Origin: an uncultured Chromatiales bacterium
Lineage (GTDB): Bacteria; Bacteroidota; Ignavibacteria; SZUA-365
Direction: 5' to 3'
Assembly (NCBI GenBank): GCA_964371045.1
Contig: CAYJMN010000002.1
Coordinates: forward strand, 60,959-124,958
DNA length: 64,000 nucleotides
The position numbers and the translations under genes were made by a program. Below, in pieces: positions 657 to 33,176 of this stretch. How positions within the stretch are numbered: the first letter of the stretch is position 1; each line of letters opens with the position of its first letter. The notes under the pieces are model-generated. The model was not told the DNA's origin and did no database searches. It worked only from the letters and a program-made list of their open reading frames with translations.

Positions 657-2315
657 TTACGCGTCTTCTTCCGCTAAATCAACTCCTGTGCGTCTGGTCA
701 CGGCAAGTCTGGGATCCAGCTCGATGTGACGACCCAGCCAGGCCTGTGCGGCACGAATTCCATCGATTGCCGCCGATGTAATCCCTCCGGCATATCCCGC
801 GCCTTCTCCAACCGGATAGAGATTTTCATGTGTCGGGGAGTTGAATCTCTGTTCGTCCCTTCCAATACGCAAAGGAGAAGATGTTCGGCTTTCAATGCCG
901 AATAGTTGAGCCTGAGGATGATGTGCGAATCCCCTGAGCTTGCCGTCGAAAGACTGAAGCCCTCGTCTGAGTCCCTGATAGATGAATTCAGGGAACAAGG
1001 CGTGCAGCGGAGCAGGGGCTGCAGGATTCACGCTTGAGCTTGCATGCAGTGAAACGCTTGATCTTCCATCAAGAAAATCGCCCAGTCTCTGACCGGGGAT
1101 CACGTTACATCGACCTGCCTGATTAACGCTTGTCCGAAATGCCTGCTCAAGCTCCTGTTGGATTTCCAATCCACCATCCATTCCTCCATAGCCGAGGTGG
1201 TCGAGATCTGCCGAGGTCACATTGACGACAATTGCCGCGTTGGAAAACCGCCCGCTCTTGAGATAGTTGCTCATCCCATTCGTCACAACTCCGTCAGGAC
1301 TTGTGCTTGCATTAAGGATGTAGCCCCCCGGACACATGCAAAACGAGTACACCGCGCGAGCTTCTTCCTTCCAAGTCTTGGCCAGTTTGTACTGTGCCGT
1401 CTCGATGCCAGGATAGCGCTGTAGATAATCGGTACCGTACTGGATTTCGTTGATGACTGTCGCAGGGTGCTCTATCCTCGCTCCCATGGCGAAATCCTTG
1501 GCGTTCATCTCGACCCGCCGCCCTCGCAGAAGAGCATACACATCGCGTGCGGAGTGCCCTGTGGCGAGGAACAGCGCACTCGCCTCCATCGCACTTCCAT
1601 CGGCAGTTTGCAGGGCGCAAATAGCGCCGTTGGCGTCGCACTTGTAATCGGTGAATCTTGAATTGTACAGGACGCGCACCCCCGACAGCTCCATATCTTC
1701 CAGCATCCGGCTGATGCATCGACGAATCTTGTTGGAGCCGAGATGAGGATTATACAAGTAACGTATGGACTCGGGGGCTCCGTACTGCACGAATCGCTGC
1801 ATTACAAAGGGTATGTATGGCGATCGGATCCTTGTTATGAGCTTCCCATCACTGTAGGTGCCCGCACCTCCGGCGCCAAAACAGATATTCGACCACGGAT
1901 GGAGGTCGCCGGTTTTCATGAACCTGGCCATGTCCCGAATTCGATCGCGCATCGGCGGTCCCTGCTCAAGCATGACCACGGACAATCCGTGCAAGTTCAG
2001 CCAATGGGCACAGAAAATTCCACCCGGACCTGAACCTATGACGACAGGATTTGTGTGTCGCTGCATCCCGGTATCAACCATCCGGCGGCGCTGCATCCCT
2101 ACAGCATCAAGGATGTCATCGACCGGATCTTCGGTGTCCGTGGTGATAGAATACTGGACCCGAATGTCACGGCGATGCCGGGCGTCGATACTTTTTTTAA
2201 GGAGACGAAATGACGTTCCCTCTCCAGCCAGGCGTTCGACAGCCTCGCGGAGTTCATCATCTGTATGGAGAAAAGGAAGAGTGAGCTGGAGTTTCATAAA
2301 ACCATGCCGCCGCAC
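657..2315 (-). CDS. FAD-dependent dehydrogenase (COG2509-like, NAD(FAD)-utilising)
   Basis: Rossmann dinucleotide motif VVIGSGPGGIFCAHWL near the N-terminus and a second glycine-rich motif GEGAGYAGGITSAAIDG near the C-terminus. 552-aa ORF; the true start may be the internal Met at ~2297 (MKLQL). Confidence 0.7.
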   Translation of the reverse strand: MRRHGFMKLQLTLPFLHTDDELREAVERLAGEGTSFRLLKKSIDARHRRDIRVQYSITTDTEDPVDDILDAVGMQRRRMVDTGMQRHTNPVVIGSGPGGIFCAHWLNLHGLSVVMLEQGPPMRDRIRDMARFMKTGDLHPWSNICFGAGGAGTYSDGKLITRIRSPYIPFVMQRFVQYGAPESIRYLYNPHLGSNKIRRCISRMLEDMELSGVRVLYNSRFTDYKCDANGAICALQTADGSAMEASALFLATGHSARDVYALLRGRRVEMNAKDFAMGARIEHPATVINEIQYGTDYLQRYPGIETAQYKLAKTWKEEARAVYSFCMCPGGYILNASTSPDGVVTNGMSNYLKSGRFSNAAIVVNVTSADLDHLGYGGMDGGLEIQQELEQAFRTSVNQAGRCNVIPGQRLGDFLDGRSSVSLHASSSVNPAAPAPLHALFPEFIYQGLRRGLQSFDGKLRGFAHHPQAQLFGIESRTSSPLRIGRDEQRFNSPTHENLYPVGEGAGYAGGITSAAIDGIRAAQAWLGRHIELDPRLAVTRRTGVDLAEEDA

Positions 2316-2372: not shown

Positions 2373-3749
2373 TCAGTACTTGACCTTGTACTTTTCCGCC
2401 AGCTTGTACAATGTGGAGCGGCTGATGCCGAGCTGACGCGCCGTCTGGGCCAGATTTCCTCGGGTGATCTCGATAGCCCGCCGTACTATCTGCTCTTTGA
2501 TGCGCTCAAGAGGAACGATCTTGTTGTCATGGAAAATTTTCCCGTCGACTTCAATTTCCATTGATGAATGCTGGAAAGGTTGTGCGACCAGGGGAAGTTC
2601 ATGCGCCGAGATAACATCTCCTTCCGCCATGACAACGGCGCGTTTTATGGCGCCTTCAAGCTCGCGAACATTACCAGGCCAGGGATAGCGATAAATGACT
2701 TCGATAGCCTCTCGCGAAAATCCTGAGACAGGTACTTTCATCTCATCGGAAAACCGCTTGAGGAACAACTCGGCGAGTTGAATGATATCCGCACCTCGCT
2801 CACGCAAAGGCGGGAGATGAATGGGGAACGTCGATAATCTGTAAAACAGATCCTCACGGAACTGTTTCTTCTTGACGGATTCCTTGAGATTCCGGTTGGT
2901 TGCGGATATAATTCTGACGTCGGTTTTAATGACGCTATTACCGCCAACACGCTCGAACTCCTTGCTCGCAATTACGCGAAGCAGTTTCGCTTGCAGCGCA
3001 TTACTCATGTCCGCGACCTCGTCAAGGAAAATCGTACCGCCGTCCGCTTGTTCGAATTTGCCGATCTTTCGCTGCGTCGCACCGGTAAAAGCCCCTCGTT
3101 CGTGCCCGAAAAGCTCACTTTCGAGAAGATCTGCCGGAATTGCCGCGCAATTCAGAACAACGAAAGGACCCTTGCGCCGCTTTCCGGTGTAATGGATCGT
3201 GCGGGCAATCAGATCTTTTCCCGTACCGCTTTCGCCTGTCAGGAACACTGTAATATCCGTGTCCTTGAGCTTTTCGATCATGCGTTCAGCGAGCTGCATT
3301 TCACGGGATTCCGCTACAATGGCACCGCTCGATACCGTCGCTTCGAGAGACTCGCGAAGCCGGGCAAGTTCTTTGCTCAAGGAAGATAACTTCACAGCAT
3401 TTTTTACAGTGACTTCCAGCTGTGTGAAATCAATAGGTTTGACAAGAAAATCTGACGCTCCGAGTTTGATGGTTTCAACCACAGTTTCAACAACTCCTTG
3501 CGCAGACAACATTATCACCGGGATATCCGGATCGCGTTTCTTGATTTCCCGCAACGTCTCGACGCCACCGAGACCAGGCATGAGAATGTCGAGAAGAATT
3601 GCATCCGGACCGTCATCCAGTGCCTCGAGAACGCTCTCACCGCTACTGAAAGAACGCGTCTTGAATCCCCAACTTTTGGTGATCCGCTGGGAGAGCATGC
3701 GACGAATCGAGTCTTCGTCGTCGACGATGAAAATTAGTTTTTCTGCCAT
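2373..3749 (-). CDS. sigma-54-dependent two-component response regulator (NtrC family: receiver + AAA+ sigma-54 activator + Fis-type HTH)
   Basis: Receiver domain (IFIVDDEDSIRRML...DILMPGLGG). Sigma-54 interaction domain with Walker A GESGTGKDLIA and the GAFTGA motif (ERGAFTGA). C-terminal HTH (LAQTARQLGISRSTLYKLAEKY). Confidence 0.9.
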   Translation of the reverse strand: MAEKLIFIVDDEDSIRRMLSQRITKSWGFKTRSFSSGESVLEALDDGPDAILLDILMPGLGGVETLREIKKRDPDIPVIMLSAQGVVETVVETIKLGASDFLVKPIDFTQLEVTVKNAVKLSSLSKELARLRESLEATVSSGAIVAESREMQLAERMIEKLKDTDITVFLTGESGTGKDLIARTIHYTGKRRKGPFVVLNCAAIPADLLESELFGHERGAFTGATQRKIGKFEQADGGTIFLDEVADMSNALQAKLLRVIASKEFERVGGNSVIKTDVRIISATNRNLKESVKKKQFREDLFYRLSTFPIHLPPLRERGADIIQLAELFLKRFSDEMKVPVSGFSREAIEVIYRYPWPGNVRELEGAIKRAVVMAEGDVISAHELPLVAQPFQHSSMEIEVDGKIFHDNKIVPLERIKEQIVRRAIEITRGNLAQTARQLGISRSTLYKLAEKYKVKY

Positions 3750-4224: not shown

Positions 4225-5748
4225 TTACCTGAGTACCTGGAATTGAATGCGACGATTCTTCGTTCTGTTCTCCGCCGAATCATTCGGAACGAGAGGCCTC
4301 TCCTCTCCATACCCGCGAGTCGTCATACGTCCGGCATCGATGCCTCGTTGAACCAGGTAATCGCGCACGGAATTCGAACGAGCTTCACTAAGCCGCTGGT
4401 TCGCGCTATTATTACCCACATCGTCGGTATGTCCCTGGATTTCGACTCGCAGTTCAGGATTCGTTCGAAGCGTGTTCAACGCCTTCGTCAGGGTCGTCTC
4501 TGAATCCGGAGTGATTCGAGCTGAGTTGGTTTCGAAATTGATTCCTTCCAGCACAATTTCACCACTCTCAGTCATTCTAAGTATGTCGGCCACGAGAGGA
4601 TTGGTACCGTCACGAACTTCCTTACCGTCATCGGCGCTATCGTCGTCGGTATCCTTCACGAGAGGATTGGTGCGATACACGTTCCGTTCGTCACAATCGC
4701 TCAATCCGTCTCCGTCGGTGTCGGCAACGAGGGCATTGGTCTTCATATCCAGAACCTCGTCACCATCACTGCATCCGTCACTGTCGGTGTCCTTAAGCAA
4801 TGGATCCGTCTTGTGCGTCTGGACTTCTTCTCCGTCGAGAAGTCGATCGTAATCGGTGTCGCGCAGAGTGGGATCGGTCTTGTACCTATTGACTTCGTCG
4901 CCATCGTTCAGACCGTCACCGTCCGTATCGCGATTGTTGGGATCGGTATTATAAATGCTGACCTCATCGGTGTCGAGCAGACCGTCACCGTCCGTATCTT
5001 TGGGTACCTCCCGAACTGGAGCTTCAGGCTGCATTGCACGAGGACGATCTCCGAGATAGAGCGTCAAACCGAAATTGATTTGGTTGTAATTGTCGTTATC
5101 TTCAGAAACCCATGTATCGAGTGCATCGGAGAACGTCAGGGTTTTCATGAATTCAGCAAAAAAATCGAAGCGTTCGGAAAGCGTCCATGTTACACCTATA
5201 CCAAGAGGTAACGTGAGCGAACTTGTCTCTGTTTCCTGCCGCTGAGCCAAGGCGTTCAGGAATCCCCCGCTACCGGTGACCGTTGGATCGAATAAAAGGA
5301 AACCAAACCCGGCATATCCGTAGGGACGCAAGTCGTACTCGGGAAACAGCTGGAGCTGCAACGCTGCCACGATATGGAGCAGATTATCCTTGTATTCGAA
5401 ACTCGAGCGGTCGCCGGTCCAGGACGAACTTACCGGGGAGTACGAAATACGGCCGAGCAAATGAAGTGTGGCGAAATCACCTGCATCCGCGAACCTCCAT
5501 AGTCCGTGAGCTCCGATGCCGATATTCCAATCCGTTTCCGCGCCAGGGAAATTCGTCCCGTCCTGAAGGTCACCAGCGAAACGGTTGAGAGACAATGCAA
5601 GGCCGAATCCGAATGTCTGCGGTCGACTGTAATCCGCGTCATATCGACGCGTTTGCCCGGTCGTCTGGTCTTGACCTGACTCCTGCTGGCTCATCGCGGA
5701 GCCGCCAAAAAGCAAAAGTAAGAGAAGGAGTGGTATTAATTTCTTCAT
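4225..5748 (-). CDS. OmpA-family outer-membrane protein with thrombospondin type-3 (calcium-binding) repeats
   Basis: Signal peptide MKKLIPLLLLLLLFGGSAMS starts at the internal Met (5746-5748). N-terminal beta-barrel-like region, then tandem D-x-D-x-D repeats (DTDGDGLLDTDE, DTDGDGLNDGDE, DTDSDGCSDGDE and others) and a C-terminal OmpA domain (VEIQGHTDDVGNNSANQRLSEARSNSVRDYLV). The 20-codon extension in the ORF track is not supported. Confidence 0.85.
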   Translation of the reverse strand: MKKLIPLLLLLLLFGGSAMSQQESGQDQTTGQTRRYDADYSRPQTFGFGLALSLNRFAGDLQDGTNFPGAETDWNIGIGAHGLWRFADAGDFATLHLLGRISYSPVSSSWTGDRSSFEYKDNLLHIVAALQLQLFPEYDLRPYGYAGFGFLLFDPTVTGSGGFLNALAQRQETETSSLTLPLGIGVTWTLSERFDFFAEFMKTLTFSDALDTWVSEDNDNYNQINFGLTLYLGDRPRAMQPEAPVREVPKDTDGDGLLDTDEVSIYNTDPNNRDTDGDGLNDGDEVNRYKTDPTLRDTDYDRLLDGEEVQTHKTDPLLKDTDSDGCSDGDEVLDMKTNALVADTDGDGLSDCDERNVYRTNPLVKDTDDDSADDGKEVRDGTNPLVADILRMTESGEIVLEGINFETNSARITPDSETTLTKALNTLRTNPELRVEIQGHTDDVGNNSANQRLSEARSNSVRDYLVQRGIDAGRMTTRGYGEERPLVPNDSAENRTKNRRIQFQVLR

Positions 5749-6003
5749 GATCGTTCCTCGAAATATATCTCTAACTGCGGTAAATGCCGTATCGCAAATC
5801 TGGATCACCTTTCAATTGAGATTGGATGGAACAGGCCATCGCCACCCATGCAAAATTGAACCACGAAACTCCAGGTTTGTATTTATGATGCACTACAAAG
5901 TAAACTCTCCGCGATGAAACATGCAAGGGTGAAGTTACAAGAAAAATGTTAAAATCTACGACACACCGGGGGCCTTTTGTCGCGCTCTGTCAACCACAAG
6001 CGG

Positions 6004-6420
6004 TTAACTCGTCGGTTCTTCACCAGATAGAAGTCTGCGAATCTGGTCTCTGATGTGCCGCTCGATGGTATCGGGGATGTCACCCGTGGAATCATGGTCT
6101 ACGAGTTGTCTGCTCGTTTTGAACTCACGCAACCGATAAAGCTCCTCGACTATCAGCTGGAGCTGCCGCGTGGCGACTTCCTCAAGAATGGCAAGTTCAG
6201 CGAATCGATTCTGAACCTGTTCGTCGCTCCATTTCGACGGATCGATGCCCGTATCCATCGCCGGATCCGAGGTCACAGTCACAATAACGACATCATGGCT
6301 CTGATCAGTAAGGTCAAGATTATTGACCGCCAGGAGTCGCTCTGTCTGATGGAGCACGCCGATGGAATGCAGTAACGAGTGAAGATCAGCTTTGCGAATA
6401 GCGTATCGAATCACTTTCAT
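6004..6420 (-). CDS. hypothetical protein (139 aa, acidic, helical) partnered with the FRG-domain gene
   Basis: Start at internal Met 6418-6420 (MKVIRYAIRK...), preceded by GAGGT about 10 nt upstream and a TATACT-like -10 box in an AT-rich spacer. The longer ORF-track version (to 6627) would overlap the FRG gene. I recognise no domain. Confidence 0.5.
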   Translation of the reverse strand: MKVIRYAIRKADLHSLLHSIGVLHQTERLLAVNNLDLTDQSHDVVIVTVTSDPAMDTGIDPSKWSDEQVQNRFAELAILEEVATRQLQLIVEELYRLREFKTSRQLVDHDSTGDIPDTIERHIRDQIRRLLSGEEPTS

Positions 6421-6572
6421 GTTTAAATCAACCTCAAGAAGTATATCGTACCGTAAAATATGAAAAACGCACCGGATTTCCTCCTCAGCGATTCTGCTTG
6501 ATTCCGTACGGCGAGATGACGATGGTCGATCGAAAATCGAGCCCCTGCATATCACCGCATCCAGGAAAGGAA

Positions 6573-7403
6573 TCAATGCAACTCTGTGTCTGACCCCGGG
6601 CTGTAATTCCGCTTCAGCCATGCGCACATGCCGTCCAGTCCAGGGAAAAGCACGCGTTCAGTTATGTTCGCCTGATCGAGTTTGTCCCTGATCTCCCATT
6701 TCAATGAAGCGGGAATGATCACTTTTCGCCAAAGGTCGCTGTGCCTCTCCAGCCAGATGTCCAGATGAACGCGGGGATTAGACATCACCGAGAAAAGCGC
6801 GTACTGATTGACGATCCGATCATCGAGTGACGGGGGTTCAAAAAAAACGACAAATTCTTCCCCTGCAAGAGAATCAAATTCCTCAAGACGAAGTGCTCCC
6901 TCAGAAAGCAAGGGCACAGTGAAGGCGTGACAACCCTCAAGTTCGAGCAGACTCCGTAATGAGGGAGGCAGCAGCTCATGCCCTCGAACGTAATCGAGGC
7001 ACCAGATGACTCCGTCCCGATCATAGCGGTTGACGTTACAAGTCGCAAAATGCATCGCGACAAATGGCGAATACGTCCAGTCCATCAAACGCGTTGGGAG
7101 ACCATGATGCTGAGCGACCGACAGCCAATTCCAGATCAGGTCCTTTTCAACTACGTTGCGATGCGCATATTTTCGGAAATTCCGCATCAAATGCTTCTCG
7201 AGTTCCCAATACGATCCACCAAGTCGAGTAAGACTTGTTTTGAGTTCGTACCTTGCATCGGAAAGACCCCGGAATGCGAAATTGGAGCGGAATCGGTAAA
7301 TGTCCTGCTTCCATGATTGCTCGAACAATGCATCGACAAGCTCATTCCATGAGCGCACAACCATTATCCTGGAGTTCAGTGTTCCTGCATCAATGCCGAT
7401 CAT
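6573..7403 (-). CDS. FRG-domain protein (Pfam FRG family, function unknown)
   Basis: Carries both hallmark FRG motifs, NFAFRGLSDARYELKTSLTR and AQHHGLPTRLMDWTYSPFVAMHFA, plus the downstream RIVNQYALF element. Start at the internal Met (7401-7403), 11 bp after the stop of the DUF4249-like lipoprotein gene. The region looks lower in GC than its flanks. Confidence 0.7.
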   Translation of the reverse strand: MIGIDAGTLNSRIMVVRSWNELVDALFEQSWKQDIYRFRSNFAFRGLSDARYELKTSLTRLGGSYWELEKHLMRNFRKYAHRNVVEKDLIWNWLSVAQHHGLPTRLMDWTYSPFVAMHFATCNVNRYDRDGVIWCLDYVRGHELLPPSLRSLLELEGCHAFTVPLLSEGALRLEEFDSLAGEEFVVFFEPPSLDDRIVNQYALFSVMSNPRVHLDIWLERHSDLWRKVIIPASLKWEIRDKLDQANITERVLFPGLDGMCAWLKRNYSPGSDTELH

Positions 7404-7414
7404 GCACAATGATG

Positions 7415-8311
7415 CTATTTTTTCCTTTTGAGAACAAACACTTCCTTTGCAATCACCGATGCCGATCCGAAAACTCCCACTCCACCGACGATGTTGCTGT
7501 ACTCCGGACGATACTCCACGGACCGCCCTCCCCACTGTGTGGCTTTGAACCAATCGAGCAGAGCTTTATCGGGTGCCAGAATCGCAACCTCATTCCTCCC
7601 ATACCAGCGAAACGCGGCCCATACTGTCGGAGCCTGATTCGCCTGAATAAATCCCCACCTGGTTGCGGTGTAAAACTGGGGATCATCAGGTTTTTCGAAC
7701 GAAATATTGTTTGTTCTGTCATTCACTTCCGATACAGGCGGAACAAGATACATGCCATACTCCAAGGTGTCGAGTACATTCACTCTCACCAGATACTCCG
7801 GCGAATTTCCCCTCGTCCACGAAATCCTTAACGAATCGGGACTGTACAATACGGTCGTATCTTGCGGATATTGCAGCAGATCCCTTGGCGGGATGATCCA
7901 CGCTATTCGTTTCGGTGTTACGGTACTCGCGGTAACAGTCTTCCCGTCTCGCGTTCTGACGTGAATGGAGTACCGGGTTTCCGGCATCACGCTAATGGTG
8001 GTGTCAGGCAGAAAATACGAGCCGATTCCATTCATTTCCTTGAACTCCAGATTGTAATCCGTTCCCTCCGTACTCAACACAACCTCCGCCCCGGCGTCGA
8101 TCATCGAAGCATAGTCAAAGGGTTGGGTAACAGGCTGTGACACTCCGACGATGACATTGCGAATCGGCTCATCGACGATCAGGTAGGCTTCTACGAAGGG
8201 TGTGGGAATGTAATCAGTCGGAGGCGCGTCCTCGCAGGCCGCCATTCCCAGAACGAGAACGGAAACTAACAATGACCGTACGTGTGGATTTCGCATTATA
8301 TTGTTGCTCAT
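7415..8311 (-). CDS. lipoprotein, DUF4249-like (the usual partner of CarboxypepD_reg-type TonB-dependent receptors)
   Basis: Lipoprotein signal peptide with lipobox Cys (LVLGMAAC). It lies immediately downstream of the TonB-dependent receptor gene, the arrangement typical of FCB genomes. The DUF assignment comes from context and size, not a recognised motif. Confidence 0.55.
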   Translation of the reverse strand: MSNNIMRNPHVRSLLVSVLVLGMAACEDAPPTDYIPTPFVEAYLIVDEPIRNVIVGVSQPVTQPFDYASMIDAGAEVVLSTEGTDYNLEFKEMNGIGSYFLPDTTISVMPETRYSIHVRTRDGKTVTASTVTPKRIAWIIPPRDLLQYPQDTTVLYSPDSLRISWTRGNSPEYLVRVNVLDTLEYGMYLVPPVSEVNDRTNNISFEKPDDPQFYTATRWGFIQANQAPTVWAAFRWYGRNEVAILAPDKALLDWFKATQWGGRSVEYRPEYSNIVGGVGVFGSASVIAKEVFVLKRKK

Positions 8312-8323
8312 GTCGTTGGCATC

Positions 8324-10615
8324 CTAAAAATTGATCTCGACTGCGACACTGGGAAGAATCGGAAGAAGACGAACGTCTTCCACCTTGGTTACATCCCCGG
8401 TGGTGTCATAGTACCTGAACCAGATATCCCTCCGCGAATATACATTGAAGACATCGATCAGTACCTTCGTGGGCAGGTTGAAGAGCGTCGTGTGGTACCG
8501 TGCGTTGAGATTGAGTTGATGTGAAGCCGGAAGCCGCAATCCAAACCGTTCTGCCGGGATGGTTATTCCCTTGCCGAGATCCGAACCGGGCAAATAACTC
8601 TCCAGTCTTGAGGTCCGACCTGTGTAGGACTGACCAGATTGGAAGGTGAACGTCGCGCTCAAATCCCATCGGTCATTGATCTTGTATTGTGTTACGAGCT
8701 TGAAATCATGCCTTCTGTCCCATTTCGGCCGGAAATACCTGCCCTCGTTCAGAGCATCAAATCTTGTATTAATCCAGCCGAGTGCATACCCCGCCCAGCC
8801 AGTAAACCTTCCGACTTTTTTTTGCAGGAAGAATTCCACACCATACGCCTCTCCCTCTCCATCGTAGAAGAAGTCCGCCACTGTCTTACCTCGCGTTTGA
8901 AACTGGTTGAGCTCGCTCGCGTGATAGAGATCCTTGTAATACACATCAACATTGAGGTTATAGCCCGCAACAGGCTCGGTTTCCAAACCCAGCACATAAT
9001 GAATTGCCATGCTGGGTGAGACCGTGGAATCCGTGGGCAGCCAGGTATCGAAGAAGCTGAAATCAGGCAGCGAGGCCAAACGGAAATACTGATGGTACAT
9101 CCCCCAGGCAGCCTTGACGGCGATATTGTCCTGGAGCTGATACCGCATGGCGATGCGAGGGTCGAGTTTGACGATGTTCCTCAAATCGTAATAATTCGCA
9201 CGAAGACCCGCCTGCAAGGAAAATAAATTCGTGAACTGATAATTGCTCTGCACGTACATCGACCCTGTATGGTCGCTTTCCTCCAGATTCACGATCCCAC
9301 CGTCGTTGGTACCTTTTGCCGAAGTCGAATCCGCGTTCCCTGTGAAATTCTGCTCGTAATTAAGCAGGTATCTGTTTAACTCGATACCGCTCTTGAGCGT
9401 CCAATCCGTCGAAACGAACCACTCAAGATTGGTTTTCAAGGTCACATCCTGAATAATGTTTTGCACTGCGGTCTCGAAGCCGGCGTTTTCCGTAGAAAAA
9501 CTGTTCCTGTACCTGCTCCAGCTCAGATTGACGACGGAAAACAAATTATCGTTTAAGATGTGCGTCCATCGTCCGGATACCGTGCGATTGCTGATCCCGA
9601 GCAAACCGTTGAATCCGGCGCGATTGTCGAATTCCATCTTGTCCTCCGATGTGAAACCGGAAAGGAACACCTTGTCGGCTTCTCCAAAATCCTGTGAAAT
9701 CTTACCGTTGATATCGTAAAAATAATAATCCGGCAGAGGATCCGCGTCCGTTTCAATGAGCGAAGTCAACAGGTCAATATAGGTCCTCCTTCCGCCCACA
9801 AACCAGGAACCGTTTCCGATAGGGCCTTCGGCGGAAATCCGCGTCGAGATCAGGCCAAGAGAGGCTGTACCTCCGAACGTATTCCTGTTCCCATCTTTCT
9901 GCACAAGATCAAGCACCGCCGAAAGTCTGCCGCCGTATTCAGCGGGAAAACCACCCTTGATAAGATCGACGTCCTTGATGGCATCCGGATTGAATGTCGA
10001 GAAGAAACCGAATAAATGCGTGGGATTGTAGATGGTGGATCCGTCCAGAAGCACAAGGGTTTGATCTGGGGAACCCCCGCGAATGTATAAACCGCTGGAT
10101 ATCTGCGAAGACGCGAGTACACCAGGCAGGTATTGAATCGACCGGAAAATGTCGGCCTCACCCCCTACACGCAACTGGTTGATCTGACGAATAGGGATGT
10201 TCACGCGGCTGACGGTTATCTGTCGCTTGTCGTCGAACCTGTCGCTTTCGACTACGACCTCATCAAGCTCAATACTCTCTGACTCCAGTTCGACGTCGAT
10301 ACGTCGCGACTCCCGCTTCTTCAGTTCTACTTTGACTTCCTTGCGATTGTAGCCAAGGAAGCTGAACACGATAGTGTAACCGCCTTCGGGAATCTCGGAA
10401 ACAGCGTAGTATCCGCTTTTGTTGGTAATCGTCCCCTGGCGTGTTTCCACTATCTGTATCGTGGCTCCGACAAGGGTTTCACCTGTTTCCTTGTCACGTA
10501 CATATCCATTGATGGTGGCTTTTTCACTGAGGTTTTCCGTGCCGGTACTGTAAACTGAATGAAGGGGGAACAGGAGAGTAACCAGCAGGAAACGGATGCT
10601 TTTTGTGATGATCAT
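8324..10615 (-). CDS. TonB-dependent outer-membrane receptor with an N-terminal carboxypeptidase-regulatory-like (CarboxypepD_reg) domain
   Basis: Signal peptide MIITKSIRFLLVTLLFPLHSVYS, then the CarbopepD_reg motif INGYVRDKETGETLVGATIQ...SGYYAVSEIPEGGYTIVFSFLGYN, a plug domain and a long beta-barrel ending in an aromatic residue (...VAVEINF). Start taken at the internal Met; coordinates are good to +/- a few bp because my position count near 10.6 kb was off by one. Confidence 0.85.
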   Translation of the reverse strand: MIITKSIRFLLVTLLFPLHSVYSTGTENLSEKATINGYVRDKETGETLVGATIQIVETRQGTITNKSGYYAVSEIPEGGYTIVFSFLGYNRKEVKVELKKRESRRIDVELESESIELDEVVVESDRFDDKRQITVSRVNIPIRQINQLRVGGEADIFRSIQYLPGVLASSQISSGLYIRGGSPDQTLVLLDGSTIYNPTHLFGFFSTFNPDAIKDVDLIKGGFPAEYGGRLSAVLDLVQKDGNRNTFGGTASLGLISTRISAEGPIGNGSWFVGGRRTYIDLLTSLIETDADPLPDYYFYDINGKISQDFGEADKVFLSGFTSEDKMEFDNRAGFNGLLGISNRTVSGRWTHILNDNLFSVVNLSWSRYRNSFSTENAGFETAVQNIIQDVTLKTNLEWFVSTDWTLKSGIELNRYLLNYEQNFTGNADSTSAKGTNDGGIVNLEESDHTGSMYVQSNYQFTNLFSLQAGLRANYYDLRNIVKLDPRIAMRYQLQDNIAVKAAWGMYHQYFRLASLPDFSFFDTWLPTDSTVSPSMAIHYVLGLETEPVAGYNLNVDVYYKDLYHASELNQFQTRGKTVADFFYDGEGEAYGVEFFLQKKVGRFTGWAGYALGWINTRFDALNEGRYFRPKWDRRHDFKLVTQYKINDRWDLSATFTFQSGQSYTGRTSRLESYLPGSDLGKGITIPAERFGLRLPASHQLNLNARYHTTLFNLPTKVLIDVFNVYSRRDIWFRYYDTTGDVTKVEDVRLLPILPSVAVEINF

Positions 10616-11217
10616 TGATGATGGTATTGCTTCACACACTGAGAATAAACGAACTGAATTTGCTTCCGACAAGAGCAACGTTCCCTTAACAGCCGGAATG
10701 CCCTGATCGTTTCGGTTTACGACTCCGGATATAAAAAGTTGCTCTGCCCGTTCAACTGAACAATGTCCGGGTGTACGGTAGTGCGATACATTGCGATGAA
10801 TCAGTCTGCTTGAACCCTTCCCGATGTTGAATACGCGCCATGCGGAAACGCCCCCTTGTTGCGCAAATTCGCCCAGGACTCTCTCTTTTTCAATGAAGCA
10901 GAAGCATCAGCAGATCTCCCTCGCGATAACTCTCCAGCAGCTGTCATGGATCCCGAGCCAGGTATTGATCGTGCGGTCCCGCACCGCAAGTGCGTTCCTT
11001 ATATTGATCGGGGACTCATTCCTCATTCATATATGAATCGGAGGGATGGGACAGCCAGGCGGATACCTGCAACGATACTCGATATACGTATCGAGATACT
11101 TCTTGCTGTTCTACAGGCAATGCGGTCTGACAGTCTTCAGGATTCCATGCACTGGAAATGGGCTTGCTCGAATCACCTGCCGTGATCCAGCTGCTTCGCT
11201 TTCATGAATATCGGCGG

Positions 11218-12144
11218 TCACGAAACCACGGGATGCAGCACAGTGAGCTTCCGCTTACCAGCGTCAATCGCAAGGTTCGCACCCATGGGCAATGTGATCT
11301 TTTCCCGTATATGACCAAACGGGATATCCGCCAATATTGGAACGTTGAGAGGGAGGAGATATTCTTCGAAGACCTCATCCAGGGGGCGATCGCACTTGAG
11401 ATCGGGAATAGCGGTAAAACTCCCCAGCACAACTCCGGCAACGCTCTTCAGGATACCTGCATATTTTAACTGAAGCAACATTCTGTCTATCCGATACACC
11501 CGTTCTCCAATATCTTCCAGAAACAGAATCGAACCGCTAAATTCCGGCAGGTATGGCGATCCGGCTAATGAGCAAAGCACCGAAAGGTTACCGCCCATCA
11601 ATGGTCCTTCCGCGCGGCCGGCACGGATCGTCCGCACTTCGTTTCCGATCGTGAGTTCTCTCTGTGTTCGAGGCTTCATCACGAGATCCCATAACGCTGT
11701 TTCAACGTTGATCGAAATCTCGTCCGCCATCTCCGCAGCCACCATGGGCCCGGCGAATGTGACCAGGCCCGTGCGAGCAAGCACTCCCATCGATAGCGCA
11801 GTAATATCACTGAATCCCACGACGATTTTCGGCTTGTTCCGCATGGCGTCCCAATCGAGATACTCGAGAAGTCTTGCCGATCCGTATCCGCCCCTTGTAC
11901 AAAACATGGCTTTCACACGGTCGTCGGCAAACATTTCTTCCAGGTCCATTTGTCTGACGCGATCCGATCCTGCGAAATATCCGCTTCGCAATCCGACGCC
12001 TACCCCTATCCTGACCCGAAATCCTCGTCCCAGAAGGTAGTTCACTCCTCTCGCGAGACGAGCACCGTCCTGCGGAGGACTTGCCGGCGAGATAACACCG
12101 ATCAAATCTCCAGGACGCAGTCTTGGGGGGATGAGCTGTTTCAT
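11218..12144 (-). CDS. ldcA: LD-carboxypeptidase (muramoyltetrapeptide carboxypeptidase, peptidase family S66)
   Basis: 308 aa. N-terminal LRPGDLIGVISPASPP, then the S66 fold with the conserved Ser region (VGFSDITAL) and the C-terminal His/Glu region. Confidence 0.8.
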   Translation of the reverse strand: MKQLIPPRLRPGDLIGVISPASPPQDGARLARGVNYLLGRGFRVRIGVGVGLRSGYFAGSDRVRQMDLEEMFADDRVKAMFCTRGGYGSARLLEYLDWDAMRNKPKIVVGFSDITALSMGVLARTGLVTFAGPMVAAEMADEISINVETALWDLVMKPRTQRELTIGNEVRTIRAGRAEGPLMGGNLSVLCSLAGSPYLPEFSGSILFLEDIGERVYRIDRMLLQLKYAGILKSVAGVVLGSFTAIPDLKCDRPLDEVFEEYLLPLNVPILADIPFGHIREKITLPMGANLAIDAGKRKLTVLHPVVS

Positions 12145-12149
12145 GCAAA

Positions 12150-13037
12150 TCAGATCAGCGAGAGTTCTGTCAGCGTTTGTTCAAGCACCTTTTTCACGTC
12201 CGCCTCCATCATAACCAGTGGAAGTCGAACGTATTCATTCATCAACCCCATCATGGCCATCGCGGTCTTGACCGGGATTGGATTCGACTCAATAAAATTC
12301 ACTTCCATCAACTTCAACAAACGGTAGTGAAGTTCACGAGCCCCTTCGTAATTACCTTCGAACCAGCGATGAACCATCGAGGAAAAGAGATCGGGCACTT
12401 CGTTCGAAGCGACGGAAATGGCACCATCCATACCTATGGCGAGTTGGGCAAGCACAAGATTATCGTCACCTGAAAGCACTGCGAAATTGTCCGGTTTTCT
12501 CTGAATAATTGCCATCGCCTGCGAGAAATTCGCGCTGGCTTCCTTTGTAGCTACGACATTGTCAATTTCGGCGAGCTTGAGCTGGGTCTCAGCGGAAATA
12601 TTGCCAGCGGTTCTGCCTGGTACGTTGTACAACACCAGCCCGATTGGAATAGCCTCCGCCACTGCTCTGAAATGCTGATAGTACCCTTCCTGCGTGGGTT
12701 TGTTATAATACGGCCCGACGATCAGCACAGCATCCACGCCACATTCGGCTGCCATCCGTGCGTTGTGAATCGCGTGCGCGGTGGCGTTTGATCCCGCGCC
12801 AGCAATCACCGGTACACGTCCACCGGCTTCATCTACCACAAGTGCAAGCAACTGCTGATACTCGTCCTCCGTTAACGTGACTGCTTCTCCTGTTGTACCG
12901 CATGGGACAAGCATGTCGATGCCGCAATCTATCTGGCGCTTCACAAGAGAACGCATGGTTGCATAATCTACGGTCCCATCCTCGCAAAATGGAGTGACCA
13001 GCGCCGTTCCTACACCTTTACGAACCAGTGATATCAT
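12150..13037 (-). CDS. dapA: 4-hydroxy-tetrahydrodipicolinate synthase
   Basis: Typical DapA N-terminus GVGTALVTPF, GTTGE motif, and the Schiff-base Lys region (VVATKEAS). 295 aa. Confidence 0.9.
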   Translation of the reverse strand: MISLVRKGVGTALVTPFCEDGTVDYATMRSLVKRQIDCGIDMLVPCGTTGEAVTLTEDEYQQLLALVVDEAGGRVPVIAGAGSNATAHAIHNARMAAECGVDAVLIVGPYYNKPTQEGYYQHFRAVAEAIPIGLVLYNVPGRTAGNISAETQLKLAEIDNVVATKEASANFSQAMAIIQRKPDNFAVLSGDDNLVLAQLAIGMDGAISVASNEVPDLFSSMVHRWFEGNYEGARELHYRLLKLMEVNFIESNPIPVKTAMAMMGLMNEYVRLPLVMMEADVKKVLEQTLTELSLI

Positions 13038-13776
13038 CGAACATCTCCTCTAAACTGAAAATACCTTTCTTGTTTTGTATCCAGCGAGCGGCCATTAAGG
13101 CTCCCTCGGCGAACCCGACTCTGTTTTTCGCTTCGTGAACAATGCGTAAAGAGTCCGCTTCCGAATCGATTGCGACTTCATGACGGCCTATGACATAACC
13201 CAACCGCTCCGAAGAAACACACAGCTCCTGAGGCTCAATCGCACGTCCCGAACAGGTTGCAAGCAAGGATGTCTTTCGGGTGGTATGCCGCAGAATTGTC
13301 TCGGCGAGAGTGAGTGCCGTTCCACTCGGCGCGTCTGCTTTCGCTCGATGATGTACTTCATGAATCGCGATGTCATATTGATTCAATCCCCTCAGCATGG
13401 AGGCGGCAAGCGCAGTCAAACGATTGAGCATGTGAACTCCCACAGAAAAATTCGAGGCCTGAATCAGTGCCCCACCATGACTGAGAACTGCTGCCTGGAC
13501 TCTTTGCACATCCTGGCTCCATCCGGTCGTTCCGCAGACGATCGGCTTGCCAAGTTCCGCCATGACGAGCAGGTTTTTTACAGCGGCCTCCGGTCGGGTA
13601 AACTCGATGCAGACATCAGCATCGGCAGCACGATCAATAGAATTGTTGAATTCCTCAACGCCGGGATCGATGATTATTGGTTCAGGATATCCCTGCATGC
13701 GCATCGCTTTATGGATTTCCTTCCCCATTCTTCCATAACCGACCAACGCAATCGCGATGTGTTTTTCAGCGTTCAT
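13018..13776 (-). CDS. dapB: 4-hydroxy-tetrahydrodipicolinate reductase
   Basis: Rossmann N-terminus IAIALVGYGRMGKEI and the DapB signature EVHHRAKADAPSGTA. Start taken at the internal Met (MNAEKH); the 30-codon extension is not supported. Confidence 0.85.
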   Translation of the reverse strand: MNAEKHIAIALVGYGRMGKEIHKAMRMQGYPEPIIIDPGVEEFNNSIDRAADADVCIEFTRPEAAVKNLLVMAELGKPIVCGTTGWSQDVQRVQAAVLSHGGALIQASNFSVGVHMLNRLTALAASMLRGLNQYDIAIHEVHHRAKADAPSGTALTLAETILRHTTRKTSLLATCSGRAIEPQELCVSSERLGYVIGRHEVAIDSEADSLRIVHEAKNRVGFAEGALMAARWIQNKKGIFSLEEMFDDITGS

Positions 13777-14761
13777 AAAGGAGTCGATAGTAAAGCGTTT
13801 TGTAGTGAAGTACTGCTTCATCCATCGAGTTGATTTCGATGAATTCTTTTTCGGTATGCGCGTCATGGATTGACCCTGGCCCGAAGAGCAGGCATTCCCC
13901 CATGGACTTTAAATAAGGTATATCCGTGCCGTAATTTACTACTTTCAATTGAAAACCTGGAACAATATGCAACAGCTGCGGCTCGGAAAGAGAATGAAAT
14001 TCAACAGAACCGTCAGTTCCTAGTAGTTCATGCAATTGTCGCTGTCGCGTTTGCGCATCGTCGACAAGCCTGTGAATGACCGTTGCCGAGGCCTCAGGTG
14101 CCAAAGTATTCATGGCGACACCGCCGCTGATCAGACCGATGTTTAACGTGGATTTGCCAAGCACCTGGTGCTGACCCCAATCGGCTGAAATAATCCTCTG
14201 AAGCACTCCAAGCAATGTATGCACTGCAGAACTGCCGCGTTCAGGATACGCCGAATGCGCGGCCCTGCCTGAGATGCGGAGTGTGTAGCTCATCACACCT
14301 TTATGGCCACTTGCAAGTTGATTATCTGTGGGTTCCCCCACGATAATGAATTCAGCGGATTTACCGGACTCCGCGGCAGTCTTTGCTCCGATACTGTCGG
14401 TCTCCTCACCGACGACGAAGAGGAAGGCGGGAGTTTCACCCTCGAGGATGAGCTGCTCTCCGGCGCCGAGCATCGCGGCAATGATTCCTTTGGTGTCACA
14501 GGCGCCTCTTCCGTAGATACGCCTGCCCTCGTGATGAGGAGGGATGAACGGTGGAACAGTATCGACATGTGTGCAAAAAACCACCTTGGGGGAGGAAGCC
14601 CACCCGGCGAAGAGATTCCAGCGATTCTCCGTAATGAATTGCCGTTCGGTGTCCAAACCAAATTCCGAGCAAAAAGCTTCCAGACGCAGGAGCATCGCCT
14701 CTTCGTTTCCCGAAACGGACGGGATAGTGATCAATTCAGTTGCAAGTTCAGCAGTATTCAT
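13766..14761 (-). CDS. dapE: M20-family metallopeptidase, probably succinyl-diaminopimelate desuccinylase (DapE/ArgE family)
   Basis: M20 metal-binding motifs (HVDTVPP; GACDTKG). Sits directly upstream of dapB-dapA in the same operon. The dapE symbol is inferred from this context. Confidence 0.65.
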   Translation of the reverse strand: MNTAELATELITIPSVSGNEEAMLLRLEAFCSEFGLDTERQFITENRWNLFAGWASSPKVVFCTHVDTVPPFIPPHHEGRRIYGRGACDTKGIIAAMLGAGEQLILEGETPAFLFVVGEETDSIGAKTAAESGKSAEFIIVGEPTDNQLASGHKGVMSYTLRISGRAAHSAYPERGSSAVHTLLGVLQRIISADWGQHQVLGKSTLNIGLISGGVAMNTLAPEASATVIHRLVDDAQTRQRQLHELLGTDGSVEFHSLSEPQLLHIVPGFQLKVVNYGTDIPYLKSMGECLLFGPGSIHDAHTEKEFIEINSMDEAVLHYKTLYYRLLYER

Positions 14762-14841
14762 GGATATACAATATACGCGAAACCGCATAAAAAAAGCGTC
14801 CCGCCGTGAGGCGGGACGCTTGGTAAGGTTTGACTAACCGA

Positions 14842-17800
14842 TTACTTCAGCAGGGTCATCTTGCGAGTCTGCACGAAGTTACCTGCAACCATCTTCACGA
14901 TGTAGTTGCCCGAAGGCACCTGAACACCGAGATCGTTGGTGGCATCCCAGACAACCTGGAACGCACCGGCATCGCGTGTTTCGTTGACGAGAGTCTTCAC
15001 ATGGGTGCCAAGGAGGTCATAGACCGCGATGGTAACCTGAGTCGACTTCGGCAGCGAGAAGTTGATGCTGGTGGTCGGGTTGAACGGATTCGGGTAGTTC
15101 TGACCGAGTGCGAATTCCGAAGGAACGCCTGTCTGAGGTGTGACATTAAGGATGCCAACCTTCCGAATTAACAAGCGGAATCCAGGACGGTTCTGCGGAT
15201 CTGCGTTCGGCGGGGATGACAGCGTAGCATAGAGCGGTCCAGACATAAGACCGAAGCTATTGTCAAAATCGCGAGCCGTGACATACCACACAACTGCCTG
15301 TTCTTTCGTAGTCGGCTGGCCAGAGATCTGGTCAATGATACCGGCGAGCTGTCCATGATTGGTCGTTAACTGCGCAAGATCACCATTGTTGTCGCTATCG
15401 AAGACCACAGAGCGGGTCCGACTTACCGCATCCACAAAGGTGATGTCGTAACGAACGACGTCGGTGTACGTTGCCGGGTTGAAGCGGGAGACCCGAATGT
15501 TAGTGTAAGGATCCTGCGGCACAGCTTTGACCCAAGTGAACAGTTCTACATTGGCGCCCTTCATCAGATCGATTGTACTGTTGTCGGCCGGCAATTGCAG
15601 AGCGAACGCATTGGGAGCGTGGTCGAGGATTTCATACGGGTTGGTCGAACCAGAGATCGACGGGTCGTTGGACTGGAAGGCTCTCACGAGCTGAAGCTCT
15701 TCACCCATGGAGGCGATGCGACGGATACGGGATGCCAGGAAGTAATTGGTCACACCGTTGATGAACACATCACCAGCCCAGATGTTGGAGAGACCAGGAC
15801 CGTTCGAATCGAATTCACCCGGGAAACGAGCGGTGAACGCGGTACGAACATTACGACCACTGACGACATTGAGATAACGATCGCGCGGGGCGACAATCAG
15901 CTCATAGCGACGGAGGAGGTAAACCTGATCGGGACTACCGGTCTGAGGATAAATTTCGACGAGGTAATTCGTCACCTCATCAGCCGTGAAGTTCATCTTG
16001 GCAGACTCCTGGTTGAGATTAGCAACCGTCGGTTTGACTTCGATGTACACGCCACGGTCGGCCTTCGTATGGATGATGCAAATAATTGCAACACCGTCCT
16101 TGAAGGCACTGGCCGGGATAGACCAGGTCGAATCGTCGATCTGGAGAAGCTTCGTACCGTCTTTCGTGATATATGCATAGGTGTAGCCATTGGGATCCGC
16201 GTTCCAGCTGCCCCTACTGGTGTCAGTATTGGCGAACGAGTTCTGGAGAACAAGCTCGGTAGCCGGGCTGTTCTTGTCCGGGCTATCCCAGTCACGAATG
16301 ATGTTACCGTTTTCGTCGCGAGCCGTCAGTGTGAAGCAAATTTCTTCACCGACGAGCGCGTTGATATCAGGATCACCAGCCATCGGTTCAATTTCAACAC
16401 CGCCGCCCTTGAGCTTGGTAAGCGCAAGACGGAAGTCGTTGGAACGGATCCAATGCGGCTGGCAGGAGGTCGGCGACCAGCGACTTGTATCACCGTTGAG
16501 TGCATCCGCCGGATTCGGCCAAATCCCTTCGAGGAACGGGAATTCGACTGTTTCCATCGGACGATCGTCGTTGACATTGAAGTCCTTGGTGTAGACACGC
16601 CAGATGATCTTGATGGAGTCGGCGCTGGTGCTGGTAGGATCGGAAGAGAAACCAGCGAACAGTGCGTCAAGCGTTGCGGTGGGAATCTGGATGCCCGTGG
16701 ACGTACCGGCGTTGATGACGACAATGGTGCCGACGGGGGCGCCCTTGCCAGCCGGGAACGTGCTTACCACTTCACCATACCACTGATAGCTCAGGGTATC
16801 GATCGTGCGGGTGGGATCCTTTTCCCATGTACGGGTTGTCGGATTGTAGATCAGGAACAGACCACCTTGGAGCGCTTGCTTGTCAAGGTTACGATCCTGG
16901 GCATTCGACCAGAGAATGGGAAGCGGCTGAGTACCATCGACGAATTCCGTGGCACCGTTCGGCGGCTGGATGGCCGTCGGAGCAGCGTACGGAGCGCGGT
17001 TGATGGAAATGATCAGCGGCTCGGTCGGAAGCGGATTGTTACGAACGGTAATACCGGCCGTATCGGAGTAGGTCTCAAGTCCTGCCATCTTGCTGAAGGC
17101 GCGCACAAACCAGAACACGCGGGTAACGATGCTGTCCTGATTCGGTTGCGGGAGCACGTTGGGACGGAAGATGAGTTCGCGAACCTTATCTCCGGAGAGG
17201 GTAAGAGTCGGGCTCTTGCCATCGTTGTCGGAGAGAATGCTGACAGTGCGGGTTGCGCCGCCAAAGGCGCCAAGACTGTCAATGATCGCGTACCACTCGT
17301 AACGAATAGTATCGTTCGGGTTGTTCATGGAAGGATCGGACCATTCAGCCCGTGCCCAGTTCAGGCGCAGGAAGTCATTTGCCAATCCATTGATCGGGTT
17401 GCCAAGAGAATCGAAGCAGTTACCGGTATGATCCATACGGAACAACGAAGTATTCTGCAACGTCGCTGTGCTCAGCGTGAACGGTCCGGGCGCGAACGGC
17501 ATCTTGATAGAGACCGGACGAACTGCGATGGCGTTGGCGGGAAGCAATCCATGACGGAGAGCCTGACCGGCACGTTCACCGACAGCGTCGCCGAGACGCT
17601 TGTCATCGGGCTTGATACCGACGAAGTCGTTGCGATTTCCCGCGCCGACGAGCGACAGGTTGTACAGAATAATCGAATCCTGACGGAGTTGGGTATTCTG
17701 CGGGAAGCCAACCGGACGAGCCTGGAAGTAACGGCCACCGGCTGCGATCTCGAGGTTACCGGCAGCGCCCATGGCATTCACATTCGTGAATTCCCATGTG

Positions 17801-23800: not shown

Positions 23801-23925
23801 GTCTGCTCGATGGTGCGTGTGATGTTGAAGAAGTCGCCCTTTACTGTACGGATCTGGGCATTCGCGCTCAATCCAAAGAGCAGCACGAGAGCCAGCACGG
23901 ACAGAAGAGTTAGGGTTTTCTTCAT
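14842..23925 (-). CDS. giant secreted/cell-surface protein (~3027 aa) with a T9SS C-terminal sorting domain; no recognisable catalytic or adhesin domain
   Basis: Signal peptide [24 protein letters not shown] at the internal Met (23923-23925). One uninterrupted ORF of more than 9 kb, rich in G/N/P/T/D. The C-terminus (...[40 protein letters not shown]...[22 protein letters not shown]) is a canonical T9SS CTD. Confidence 0.85.
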   Translation of the reverse strand: [3027 protein letters not shown]

Positions 23926-24353
23926 TCGAGAAATCTCCTGGTTAGTTAAAAAATGGGTCGGGGTAAACGGGTTGAACACTGCACATACCTGGTGGTTAAT
24001 GCTGGTGGTGGTTCGTTCCTCCTGCGAATTTTCAAATTGTTTGTTTTCTCTATGCATCGTAATAATCATTTTTCGGGAAACTCAATTTTGTAATATAGAC
24101 AGGGACTCAATATCAAACAACTTGTCATGACGGTTTCCACCACGCCATTACGCGTGAGGCTACTAGCCAGCATCTGATATGCAAAAACACTGCCAAAAAA
24201 TAAACCGTTTGTTTTCAACAGGTTACGCTTGTCTCAATCGTTGGCGTCAATATGATGACAGGTGTGCTTACGATGATCGACAAGGTTTTGACAATGTAAT
24301 GCCGCCTGGTGTTTTTTATGATGGATAGACCAAACTCGACCCGCGTGACTCAA

Positions 24354-32830: not shown

Positions 32831-33176
32831 CGACTGTACCGATGAGTGAGCCCATAGAAATTTCCATTGCGCGAGACGCCTCCAAGCAGTAACATGTGTG
32901 CTGCCATGCGCCTCGCGATATTGGTGCGACATTTCAATATAGCCATTTTCACAAAGAGTGACTGTTGCACGGACCGATGCATGTTGCGTATTTTTGGTGT
33001 TGGCCGATAACTTCGTTTGAAGATTCCCGTCCATCTGGAAATCGTCTTTTATCCGCAAGTCCCCAGAATCGATCACCTCATTGCTGAAGGGTCTCTATCG
33101 AGCAAATCGCTACAGTACAACTGACTGATCTCCACTCGCACACGGCAAGAGACGATTGACTGCCAACACGAATCGA

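What the first reader, a model, noticed from the sequence alone, without database searches (positions are those of the whole stretch)
6004..7403. Lower-GC two-gene module (FRG-domain protein plus unknown 139-aa partner) attached to a TonB-receptor operon: candidate accessory or defence-type module
The 6573-7403 product carries both diagnostic FRG-family motifs (FAFRGLSDARYELKTSLTR and AQHHGLPTRLMDWTYSPFVAMHFA), a family with no assigned function. It is followed after a 150-bp AT-rich spacer, with its own -10-like box and GAGGT SD, by an acidic helical 139-aa protein I cannot place in any family. By eye the 5.8-7.4 kb stretch is clearly more AT-rich than the surrounding GC-rich chromosome. The FRG start is only 11 bp from the stop of the DUF4249-like lipoprotein, so the pair appears inserted at the 3' end of an iron/nutrient-uptake operon, which is typical of horizontally acquired cargo. 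I am not aware of a characterised system built on FRG plus such a partner.
Basis: partly seen in the sequence, partly recalled or inferred. Interest (0 to 1): 0.6.

Follow-up and report, generated by a model that had tools for sequence, protein, structure and literature searches.

The report
Stand-alone FRG enzyme gene, unrelated neighbour
The FRG gene is real and looks like a single NAD-using (ADP-ribosyltransferase-fold) gene lodged long ago at the end of a nutrient-receptor operon in an uncultured Bacteroidota lineage. The small gene after it is a resident chromosomal gene that also occurs without FRG, so this is not a two-gene defence module.

Summary
The sequence features are real. The minus strand carries a TonB-dependent receptor, a DUF4249 protein, an FRG protein (6573-7403; Pfam FRG E=1e-29) and, after a 152-bp spacer, a 138-aa acidic protein (6004-6420). 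That small protein is under clear purifying selection.

The "two-gene, lower-GC, recently acquired module" reading does not hold.
- GC is 0.50 against a window mean of 0.54 (7th percentile), but GC and GC3 match the genes on both sides.
- The whole neighbourhood, including FRG and the small gene, is syntenic in six related lineages. FRG divergence tracks the host, so any acquisition was ancient.
- One related lineage (L112) has the same synteny with the small gene directly after DUF4249 and no FRG.
- More distant homologues of the small gene sit beside an FAD-dependent protein or an aminopeptidase P, never beside FRG.
- In 80 genomes from more than 10 phyla, this very conserved FRG subfamily (60-67% identity) has no homologue of the small gene and no conserved neighbour.

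Verdict: an ordinary new member of a known but untested family. Interest is low to moderate.

The parts
6573..7403 (-). FRG-domain protein, 276 aa. It belongs to a highly conserved ~261-aa stand-alone subfamily with a predicted ADP-ribosyltransferase-superfamily fold (NAD+-using).
7404..7414 (-). 11-bp junction between the DUF4249 stop and the FRG start. FRG is probably co-transcribed with the receptor operon (inferred).
   Evidence: The same gap is 12-38 bp in all six FRG-bearing relatives.
6421..6572 (-). 152-bp spacer between FRG and the small gene, 46% GC. Nothing recognisable lies in it.
   Evidence: The spacer is only 33-70 bp in relatives. Public gene calls extend the small ORF through it to 205 aa (P0128), but that extension is not conserved in orthologues.
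6004..6420 (-). 138-aa acidic protein of a small uncharacterised family. It is a resident backbone gene, not an FRG partner.
   Evidence: Orthologue alignments and third-position substitution bias. The family has only 28 clusters among 1.84 billion representatives. It is present without FRG in L112 (53% identity) and in L092-L109. AF2 confidence is low (pLDDT 62), showing a beta-alpha N-terminus and a long helix at 66-108.
7415..8311 (-). DUF4249 protein, partner of the receptor (context only, not part of the FRG unit).
   Evidence: PF14054, 31.8 bits. Syntenic in all relatives.
8324..10678 (-). TonB-dependent receptor with an N-terminal carboxypeptidase-regulatory-like domain (context only).
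   Evidence: CarbopepD_reg_2, Plug and TonB_dep_Rec_b-barrel hits.

Best explanation
The locus holds two unrelated things side by side.

1. FRG gene (6573-7403). It is a single, self-contained gene of a very conserved, horizontally spread FRG subfamily. An ancestor of this uncultured Bacteroidota clade acquired it once. It sits directly after the DUF4249 gene, so it is probably transcribed by read-through from the TonB-receptor operon. It has been inherited vertically since and was either lost, or never gained, in at least one sister lineage. The protein has an ADP-ribosyltransferase-superfamily fold and most likely binds NAD+, then either hydrolyses it or transfers ADP-ribose to a target. By family-level inference this would act as a stand-alone stress or antiviral effector.

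2. 138-aa gene (6004-6420). It is a lineage-resident small acidic protein. It probably has its own promoter in the spacer, and it was there before FRG or independently of it.

Shown: gene identities, synteny, the presence/absence polymorphism, independence of the two families, and the fold class.
Inferred: NAD+ chemistry, co-transcription, and any defence role.
For: FRG identity.

ART fold:
- The Foldseek top 12 are ART toxins, though not significant.
- The literature assigns Frg to the ART superfamily as a predicted NADase (PMC9503650; bioRxiv 10.1101/2024.07.30.605764).

Single-gene nature:
- 80 FRG loci in more than 10 phyla have no homologue of the 138-aa protein and no common neighbour.
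- In 47 of 76 loci the next downstream ORF is convergent. In 35 of 69 a same-strand gene ends within 100 bp upstream.

Empty site: L112 has identical synteny with DUF4249, an 88-bp gap, then the small-gene orthologue, and no FRG in 20.9 kb.

Independence of the small gene: homologues sit directly upstream of the orthologue of window gene 657-2315 (FAD-dependent, 59-61% identity) in L105/L106, L107 and L109. Others sit after aminopeptidase P in L094-L101 (L102 and L104 are cut off inside the small gene). None has FRG.

Ancient and vertical:
- Synteny is conserved in L001, L086/87, L088, L090 and L110/111.
- FRG identity is 74-83%, against 61-76% for DapA in the same genomes.
- The clade's FRGs are monophyletic and broadly mirror the locus tree.
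Against: - Adjacency of FRG and the small gene is kept in all six FRG-bearing lineages, so a secondarily evolved functional link within this clade cannot be excluded.
- The fold-search scores are modest (Z no higher than 6.2; Foldseek E at least 0.24) and the model is of medium confidence (pLDDT 71).
- No catalytic residues were mapped structurally.
- Without an outgroup I cannot say whether L112 lost FRG or branched off before the gain.
- This subfamily's neighbourhoods are mostly housekeeping rather than defence islands, which weakens the defence part of the explanation.
- Neighbouring ORFs in the 80 loci were called mechanically (longest ORFs) and may include errors.
Confidence: 0.7

Rival explanations
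1. FRG and the 138-aa protein form a genuine two-gene system in this clade, for example an ART toxin or effector with an acidic immunity, antitoxin or regulator protein.
For: Adjacency and orientation are conserved in six lineages. The small protein is acidic (pI about 5) and helical, as many antitoxins are. ART-fold toxins such as RES, DarT and Rhs ARTs commonly have cognate neutralisers (structures listed).
Against: - The entire 15-kb neighbourhood is equally conserved, so the adjacency carries no specific signal.
- The small gene persists at the same site without FRG (L112).
- It occurs in other lineages next to unrelated genes with no FRG.
- None of 80 FRG orthologue loci has it or any analogous conserved small downstream gene.
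- The two genes are separated by 33-152 bp rather than overlapping.
- They evolve at very different rates: 74-83% identity for FRG against 50-67% for the small protein.
Confidence: 0.1
2. This FRG subfamily is not an immune gene at all. It is a conserved NAD+-dependent enzyme with a cellular role, for example processing or modifying a universal substrate such as RNA ends, like its best structural match KptA/Tpt1.
For: - Conservation is unusually high for a defence gene: 60-67% identity across phyla, more than 90 invariant positions among 22 diverse sequences, and slower evolution than DapA in the same genomes.
- Immediate neighbours in 80 genomes are mostly housekeeping (methylglyoxal synthase, PhoH/PIN, GNAT, metabolic enzymes), with only sporadic defence hits.
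- It is stably inherited in this clade.
Against: - Its distribution is patchy and it is dispensable (absent in L112).
- Family members occur on conjugative plasmids, megaplasmids and P2-like phages.
- PADLOC lists the family as defence candidate PDC-S15.
Confidence: 0.2

Closest known systems
PADLOC phage-defence candidate PDC-S15 (single-gene FRG-domain proteins)
   Same: The window protein matches 14 PDC-S15 models. The best hit is E=2.8e-48 over residues 16-268. It is single-gene and stand-alone, as PDC-S candidates are defined (PMC12988326 calls PDCs single-gene putative candidates found by guilt-by-embedding).
   Different: PDC-S15 is only a candidate. I found no experimental test in the searchable literature. 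The subfamily here sits mostly in housekeeping contexts, not defence islands.
Frg clade of the ADP-ribosyltransferase (ART) superfamily (Burroughs & Aravind 2020, as cited in Iyer et al. 2022, PMC9503650)
   Same: It has the Pfam FRG domain. The predicted structure retrieves ART enzymes almost exclusively. The [FY]RG arginine lies in the first core strand (residues 42-47 of the model) and T110/S112 lie at the end of the strand at 106-110. This resembles the R and S-T-S positions of R-S-E-type ARTs, but I inferred that only from the secondary-structure register.
   Different: The literature describes Frg as an effector inside multi-component immune systems. Here it is stand-alone with no associated sensor. 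NADase activity is a prediction, not a measurement.
RES-Xre, DarT-DarG and Rhs-ART/immunity pairs (ART-fold toxin plus neutraliser)
   Different: The downstream gene here is not specific to FRG. It is found without FRG, and FRG is found without it. It has no Xre HTH or macro domain and does not overlap FRG translationally.

Membership tests
Pfam FRG (PF08867) | Score above the curated gathering threshold for the FRG HMM, including the N-terminal [FY]RG motif. | tested here: met
   103.6 bits against a cut-off of 25, residues 41-128 covering profile positions 2-93 of 94. FAFRG is present.
PADLOC PDC-S15 | Match to a PDC-S15 HMM as a single gene. | tested here: met
   PDLC04938 E=2.8e-48, near full length. 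No conserved partner in 80 loci.
PADLOC PDC-S15 | Actual anti-phage activity. | not testable with these tools
   No published test found. [quoted passage not shown]
ART superfamily | The split beta-sheet ART fold. | tested here: inconclusive
ART superfamily | A catalytic triad (H-Y-E or R-S-E) that binds NAD+. | not tested
   R45, T110/S112 and E189/D195/Q200 are invariant, but they were not superposed on a known ART active site.
Toxin-antitoxin or toxin-immunity pair | The two genes co-occur across unrelated genomes. | tested here: not met
   0 of 80 FRG loci carry the small gene. 0 of 18 loci carrying only homologues of the small gene have FRG. L112 has the small gene without FRG.
Recently acquired genomic islet | Composition or codon usage that deviates from the flanking genes, and mobility signatures. 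| tested here: not met
   GC and GC3 are within the range of the flanking genes. There are no tRNA genes in the window and no meaningful flanking repeats. The locus is syntenic in six diverged lineages.

The most novel reading that the evidence does not exclude
The ~261-aa FRG subfamily found here may be a broadly exchanged, strongly constrained NAD+-dependent enzyme acting on a universal cellular substrate, rather than a typical fast-evolving immune effector. It is 60-67% identical across more than 10 phyla, evolves more slowly than DapA, is stand-alone, usually sits at the 3' end of unrelated operons, and is rarely found in defence islands. Alternatively, within this Bacteroidota clade it may have secondarily recruited the resident 138-aa acidic protein as a regulator.
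Probability: 0.2. Interest if true: 0.55.

Novelty: new member of a known kind. Interest (0 to 1): 0.3.

Why it matters
As proposed, an FRG-plus-partner system would have been a new two-gene defence architecture, but the comparative data argue against it. What remains is modest.
- It is a clean natural presence/absence case showing that an FRG (PDC-S15) gene behaves as a self-sufficient single-gene unit that can settle at the end of a housekeeping operon and persist for a long time.
- This FRG subfamily is far more conserved across phyla than defence genes usually are. That makes it a good candidate for the first biochemical test of the predicted NADase or ADP-ribosyltransferase activity of FRG proteins.
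- The 138-aa protein defines a tiny uncharacterised family (28 clusters) of unknown role, seen here only in Bacteroidota-like genomes.

Tried and rejected
- Pfam, NCBIfam, PADLOC and a PDB sequence-profile search on the 138-aa protein gave nothing significant. The best hits were weak PDZ or COMM matches at E about 0.2-0.6, which I did not believe.
- Rfam and tRNA scans of the window found nothing.
- The promoter/terminator scan and the fold of the spacer were at chance level.
- A search for repeats flanking FRG as insertion scars found only short chance matches.
- The metagenome locus scan with the full small-protein family alignment failed because no stretch was conserved enough. I repeated it with a closer subset.
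- I could not read Burroughs & Aravind 2020 because it is not held, so its content is cited second-hand.
- I considered whether upstream sequences of the small gene share a conserved promoter element. Only a short window/L112 similarity was seen, and I did not pursue it.
- I considered an NAD-related role for the small protein because L094 has NrtR-Prs-Macro-NadV downstream and L093 has Nnr downstream. That is only two loci, so I treat it as anecdotal.
- Organism naming: the sources give no name for the window's own proteins. The closest named DapA homologues are "Bacteroidia" or "Bacteroidota bacterium" MAGs.

Full report
**What is there**

All relevant genes lie on the minus strand:
- 13766-14788: M20 peptidase
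- about 13018-13866: DapB
- 12150-13037: DapA
- 11218-12144: S66 LD-carboxypeptidase
- 8324-10678: TonB-dependent receptor with a carboxypeptidase-regulatory-like domain
- 7415-8311: DUF4249 protein
- 6573-7403: FRG protein
- 6004-6420: 138-aa protein
- 4225-5808: OmpA/TSP3 outer-membrane protein
- 2373-3749: sigma-54 response regulator
- 657-2315: FAD-dependent protein (FAD-depend_C)

The FRG assignment is solid: PF08867, E=1.1e-29, 103.6 bits against a cut-off of 25. The FRG start lies 11 bp after the DUF4249 stop. The spacer to the next gene is 152 bp with 46% GC.

**Composition**

The 6004-7403 stretch is 50.2% GC, against 54.0% for the 64-kb window (sd 2.5% for 1.4-kb windows; 7th percentile). 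The whole first 14 kb is equally low, at 50-52% for the receptor, DapA, the response regulator and the M20 peptidase. GC3 of FRG (0.556) and of the small gene (0.554) lies within the 0.53-0.60 range of those neighbours. There is therefore no island-like compositional break. I found no tRNA genes, no Rfam elements and no meaningful flanking repeats.

**The small gene is real but does not belong to FRG**

- Eight orthologues in all were recovered; the seven aligned are 49-66% identical to the window protein and L112 is 53%. Residues 1-37 are almost invariant.
- Substitutions are strongly biased to third codon positions, e.g. 34/18/92 for window against L086. It is a protein under purifying selection.
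- Public gene calls extend it to 205 aa, overlapping the FRG 3' end (P0128). The extension is not conserved in orthologues, so the ATG at 6420 is the supported start.
- A profile search of 1.84 billion representative proteins finds only 28 clusters, all about 130-145 aa.
- Members of this family occur without FRG. In L105/L106, L107 and L109 the gene lies directly upstream of the orthologue of the window's FAD-dependent gene (59-61% identity). In L094-L101 it follows an M24 aminopeptidase P; L102 and L104 break off inside the small gene. tblastn finds no FRG in any of these 18 loci.

**The empty site**

I traced DapA homologues to find more relatives. L110/L111 ("Bacteroidia bacterium" MAG GCA_027493955.1) has the full arrangement including FRG. 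L112, a 407-kb JGI contig, has the same gene order: giant protein, M20, DapB, DapA, S66, receptor, DUF4249, a 143-aa protein, OmpA/TSP3, response regulator, FAD-dependent. There is no FRG anywhere in its 20.9 kb. Its 143-aa protein is a 53%-identical orthologue of the window's small protein and starts 88 bp after DUF4249. FRG is thus a one-gene insertion or deletion on a conserved backbone, and the small gene belongs to the backbone.

**Age of the insertion**

- Six lineages carry FRG at this exact site: the window, L086/87, L088, L110/111, L001 and L090. Concatenated flanking proteins (2316 aa) of the five relatives differ from the window by 18-33% and L112, which lacks FRG, by 34%.
- FRG identity to the window is 74-83%. 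That is as conserved as the receptor and more conserved than DapA (61-76%). The small protein is 50-67% identical.
- In an FRG tree the clade's sequences are monophyletic, with a branching order broadly like that of the locus tree.
- The simplest reading is one ancient acquisition followed by vertical descent. Whether L112 lost the gene or split off before the gain cannot be settled without an outgroup.

**What the FRG gene is**

- The window protein belongs to a remarkably uniform subfamily. It has more than 8000 database hits. Hits beyond the window's own clade are mostly about 261 aa long and 60-67% identical across Desulfobacterota, Chromatiales, Nitrospirota, Cloacimonadota, Acidobacteriota, Chloroflexota, Gemmatimonadota, Verrucomicrobiota, Bacillota and Bacteroidota. 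More than 90 positions are invariant over the whole length in a 22-sequence sample.
- In 80 species-representative genomes it has no homologue of the small protein and no shared neighbour.
- The immediate neighbours are heterogeneous and mostly housekeeping: methylglyoxal synthase in 7 loci, PhoH/PIN in 5, GNAT in 3. Defence-model hits are only scattered.
- In 47 of 76 loci the next downstream ORF is convergent. In 35 of 69 loci a same-strand gene ends within 100 bp upstream. The gene typically rides at the tail of unrelated operons, as it does here.
- More distant FRG proteins (below 60% identity) are found on 275 plasmids. Many are conjugative, and Deinococcus megaplasmids carry full-length copies. 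Weak matches occur in a few phages, including P2-like ones.

**Function**

- PADLOC lists the family as single-gene phage-defence candidate PDC-S15; the best match here is E=2.8e-48.
- Iyer et al. 2022 (PMC9503650), citing Burroughs & Aravind 2020, place Frg in the ADP-ribosyltransferase superfamily and predict an NADase-type antiviral effector. A Legionella ART survey repeats this classification.
- I found no experimental test of FRG or PDC-S15.
- This independently supports the fold class. NAD+ chemistry itself remains inferred.
- The unusually high conservation and housekeeping contexts leave open a cellular, non-immune role for this subfamily (rival explanation, about 0.2).

**The small protein's function**

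**Verdict**

This is a new member of a known but untested family. Interest is low to moderate.

Noticed in passing
window 14842-24069 (-) and 33156-40646 (+): Two giant ORFs of 3075 aa and 2496 aa. The first is syntenic with about 3030-3040-aa proteins carrying a FlgD_ig hit, located upstream of the M20/DapB/DapA genes in relatives L110-L112.
   Followed up: no
window 6004-6627 (-): Public annotations call the small gene as a 205-aa protein (P0128) that overlaps the FRG 3' end. Orthologues support the 138-aa start at 6420, so the deposited call is probably over-extended.
   Followed up: yes
L094:1671-5274 and L093:1826-3385: In two distant loci the small-protein family gene is followed by NAD-related genes: NrtR (NUDIX regulator), a PRPP-synthetase-like gene, a Macro domain and NadV/NAMPT in L094, and the NAD(P)HX repair enzyme Nnr in L093. 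This is anecdotal but curious, given that FRG is predicted to use NAD+.
   Followed up: partly
L105:6001-8160, L107, L109; window 657-2315: In three intermediate lineages the small gene lies immediately upstream (0-30 bp) of a DUF8436/FAD-depend_C flavoprotein. The window's orthologue of that flavoprotein is 3.7 kb further downstream. This may be the ancestral linkage of the small gene.
   Followed up: partly
L015, L019, L020, L032, L033, L049, L072, L074, L075 (about 6 bp upstream of FRG): In Geobacteraceae and relatives the FRG orthologue directly follows a methylglyoxal-synthase-like gene. In five Desulfobacterota loci (L046, L057, L063, L076, L078) it is flanked within about 4 bp by a PIN-PhoH (YlaK-like) ATPase gene, upstream in three of them and downstream in two. 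These are lineage-specific syntenies, not universal partners.
   Followed up: partly
NC_049386.1 / LR595870.1 (Peduovirus P22H1) 31477-31851: A distant FRG N-terminal domain (30% identity over residues 10-133) lies at the end of a P2-like phage genome, annotated as hypothetical.
   Followed up: no
window 10801-11217 and L001:3433-3690, L086:3199-3456, L088:3221-3478: A conserved 85-aa ORF with no Pfam hit lies between the S66 peptidase and the TonB receptor in relatives. The corresponding window region (intergenic 10679-11217, with 62-109-aa ORFs) was not resolved.
   Followed up: no
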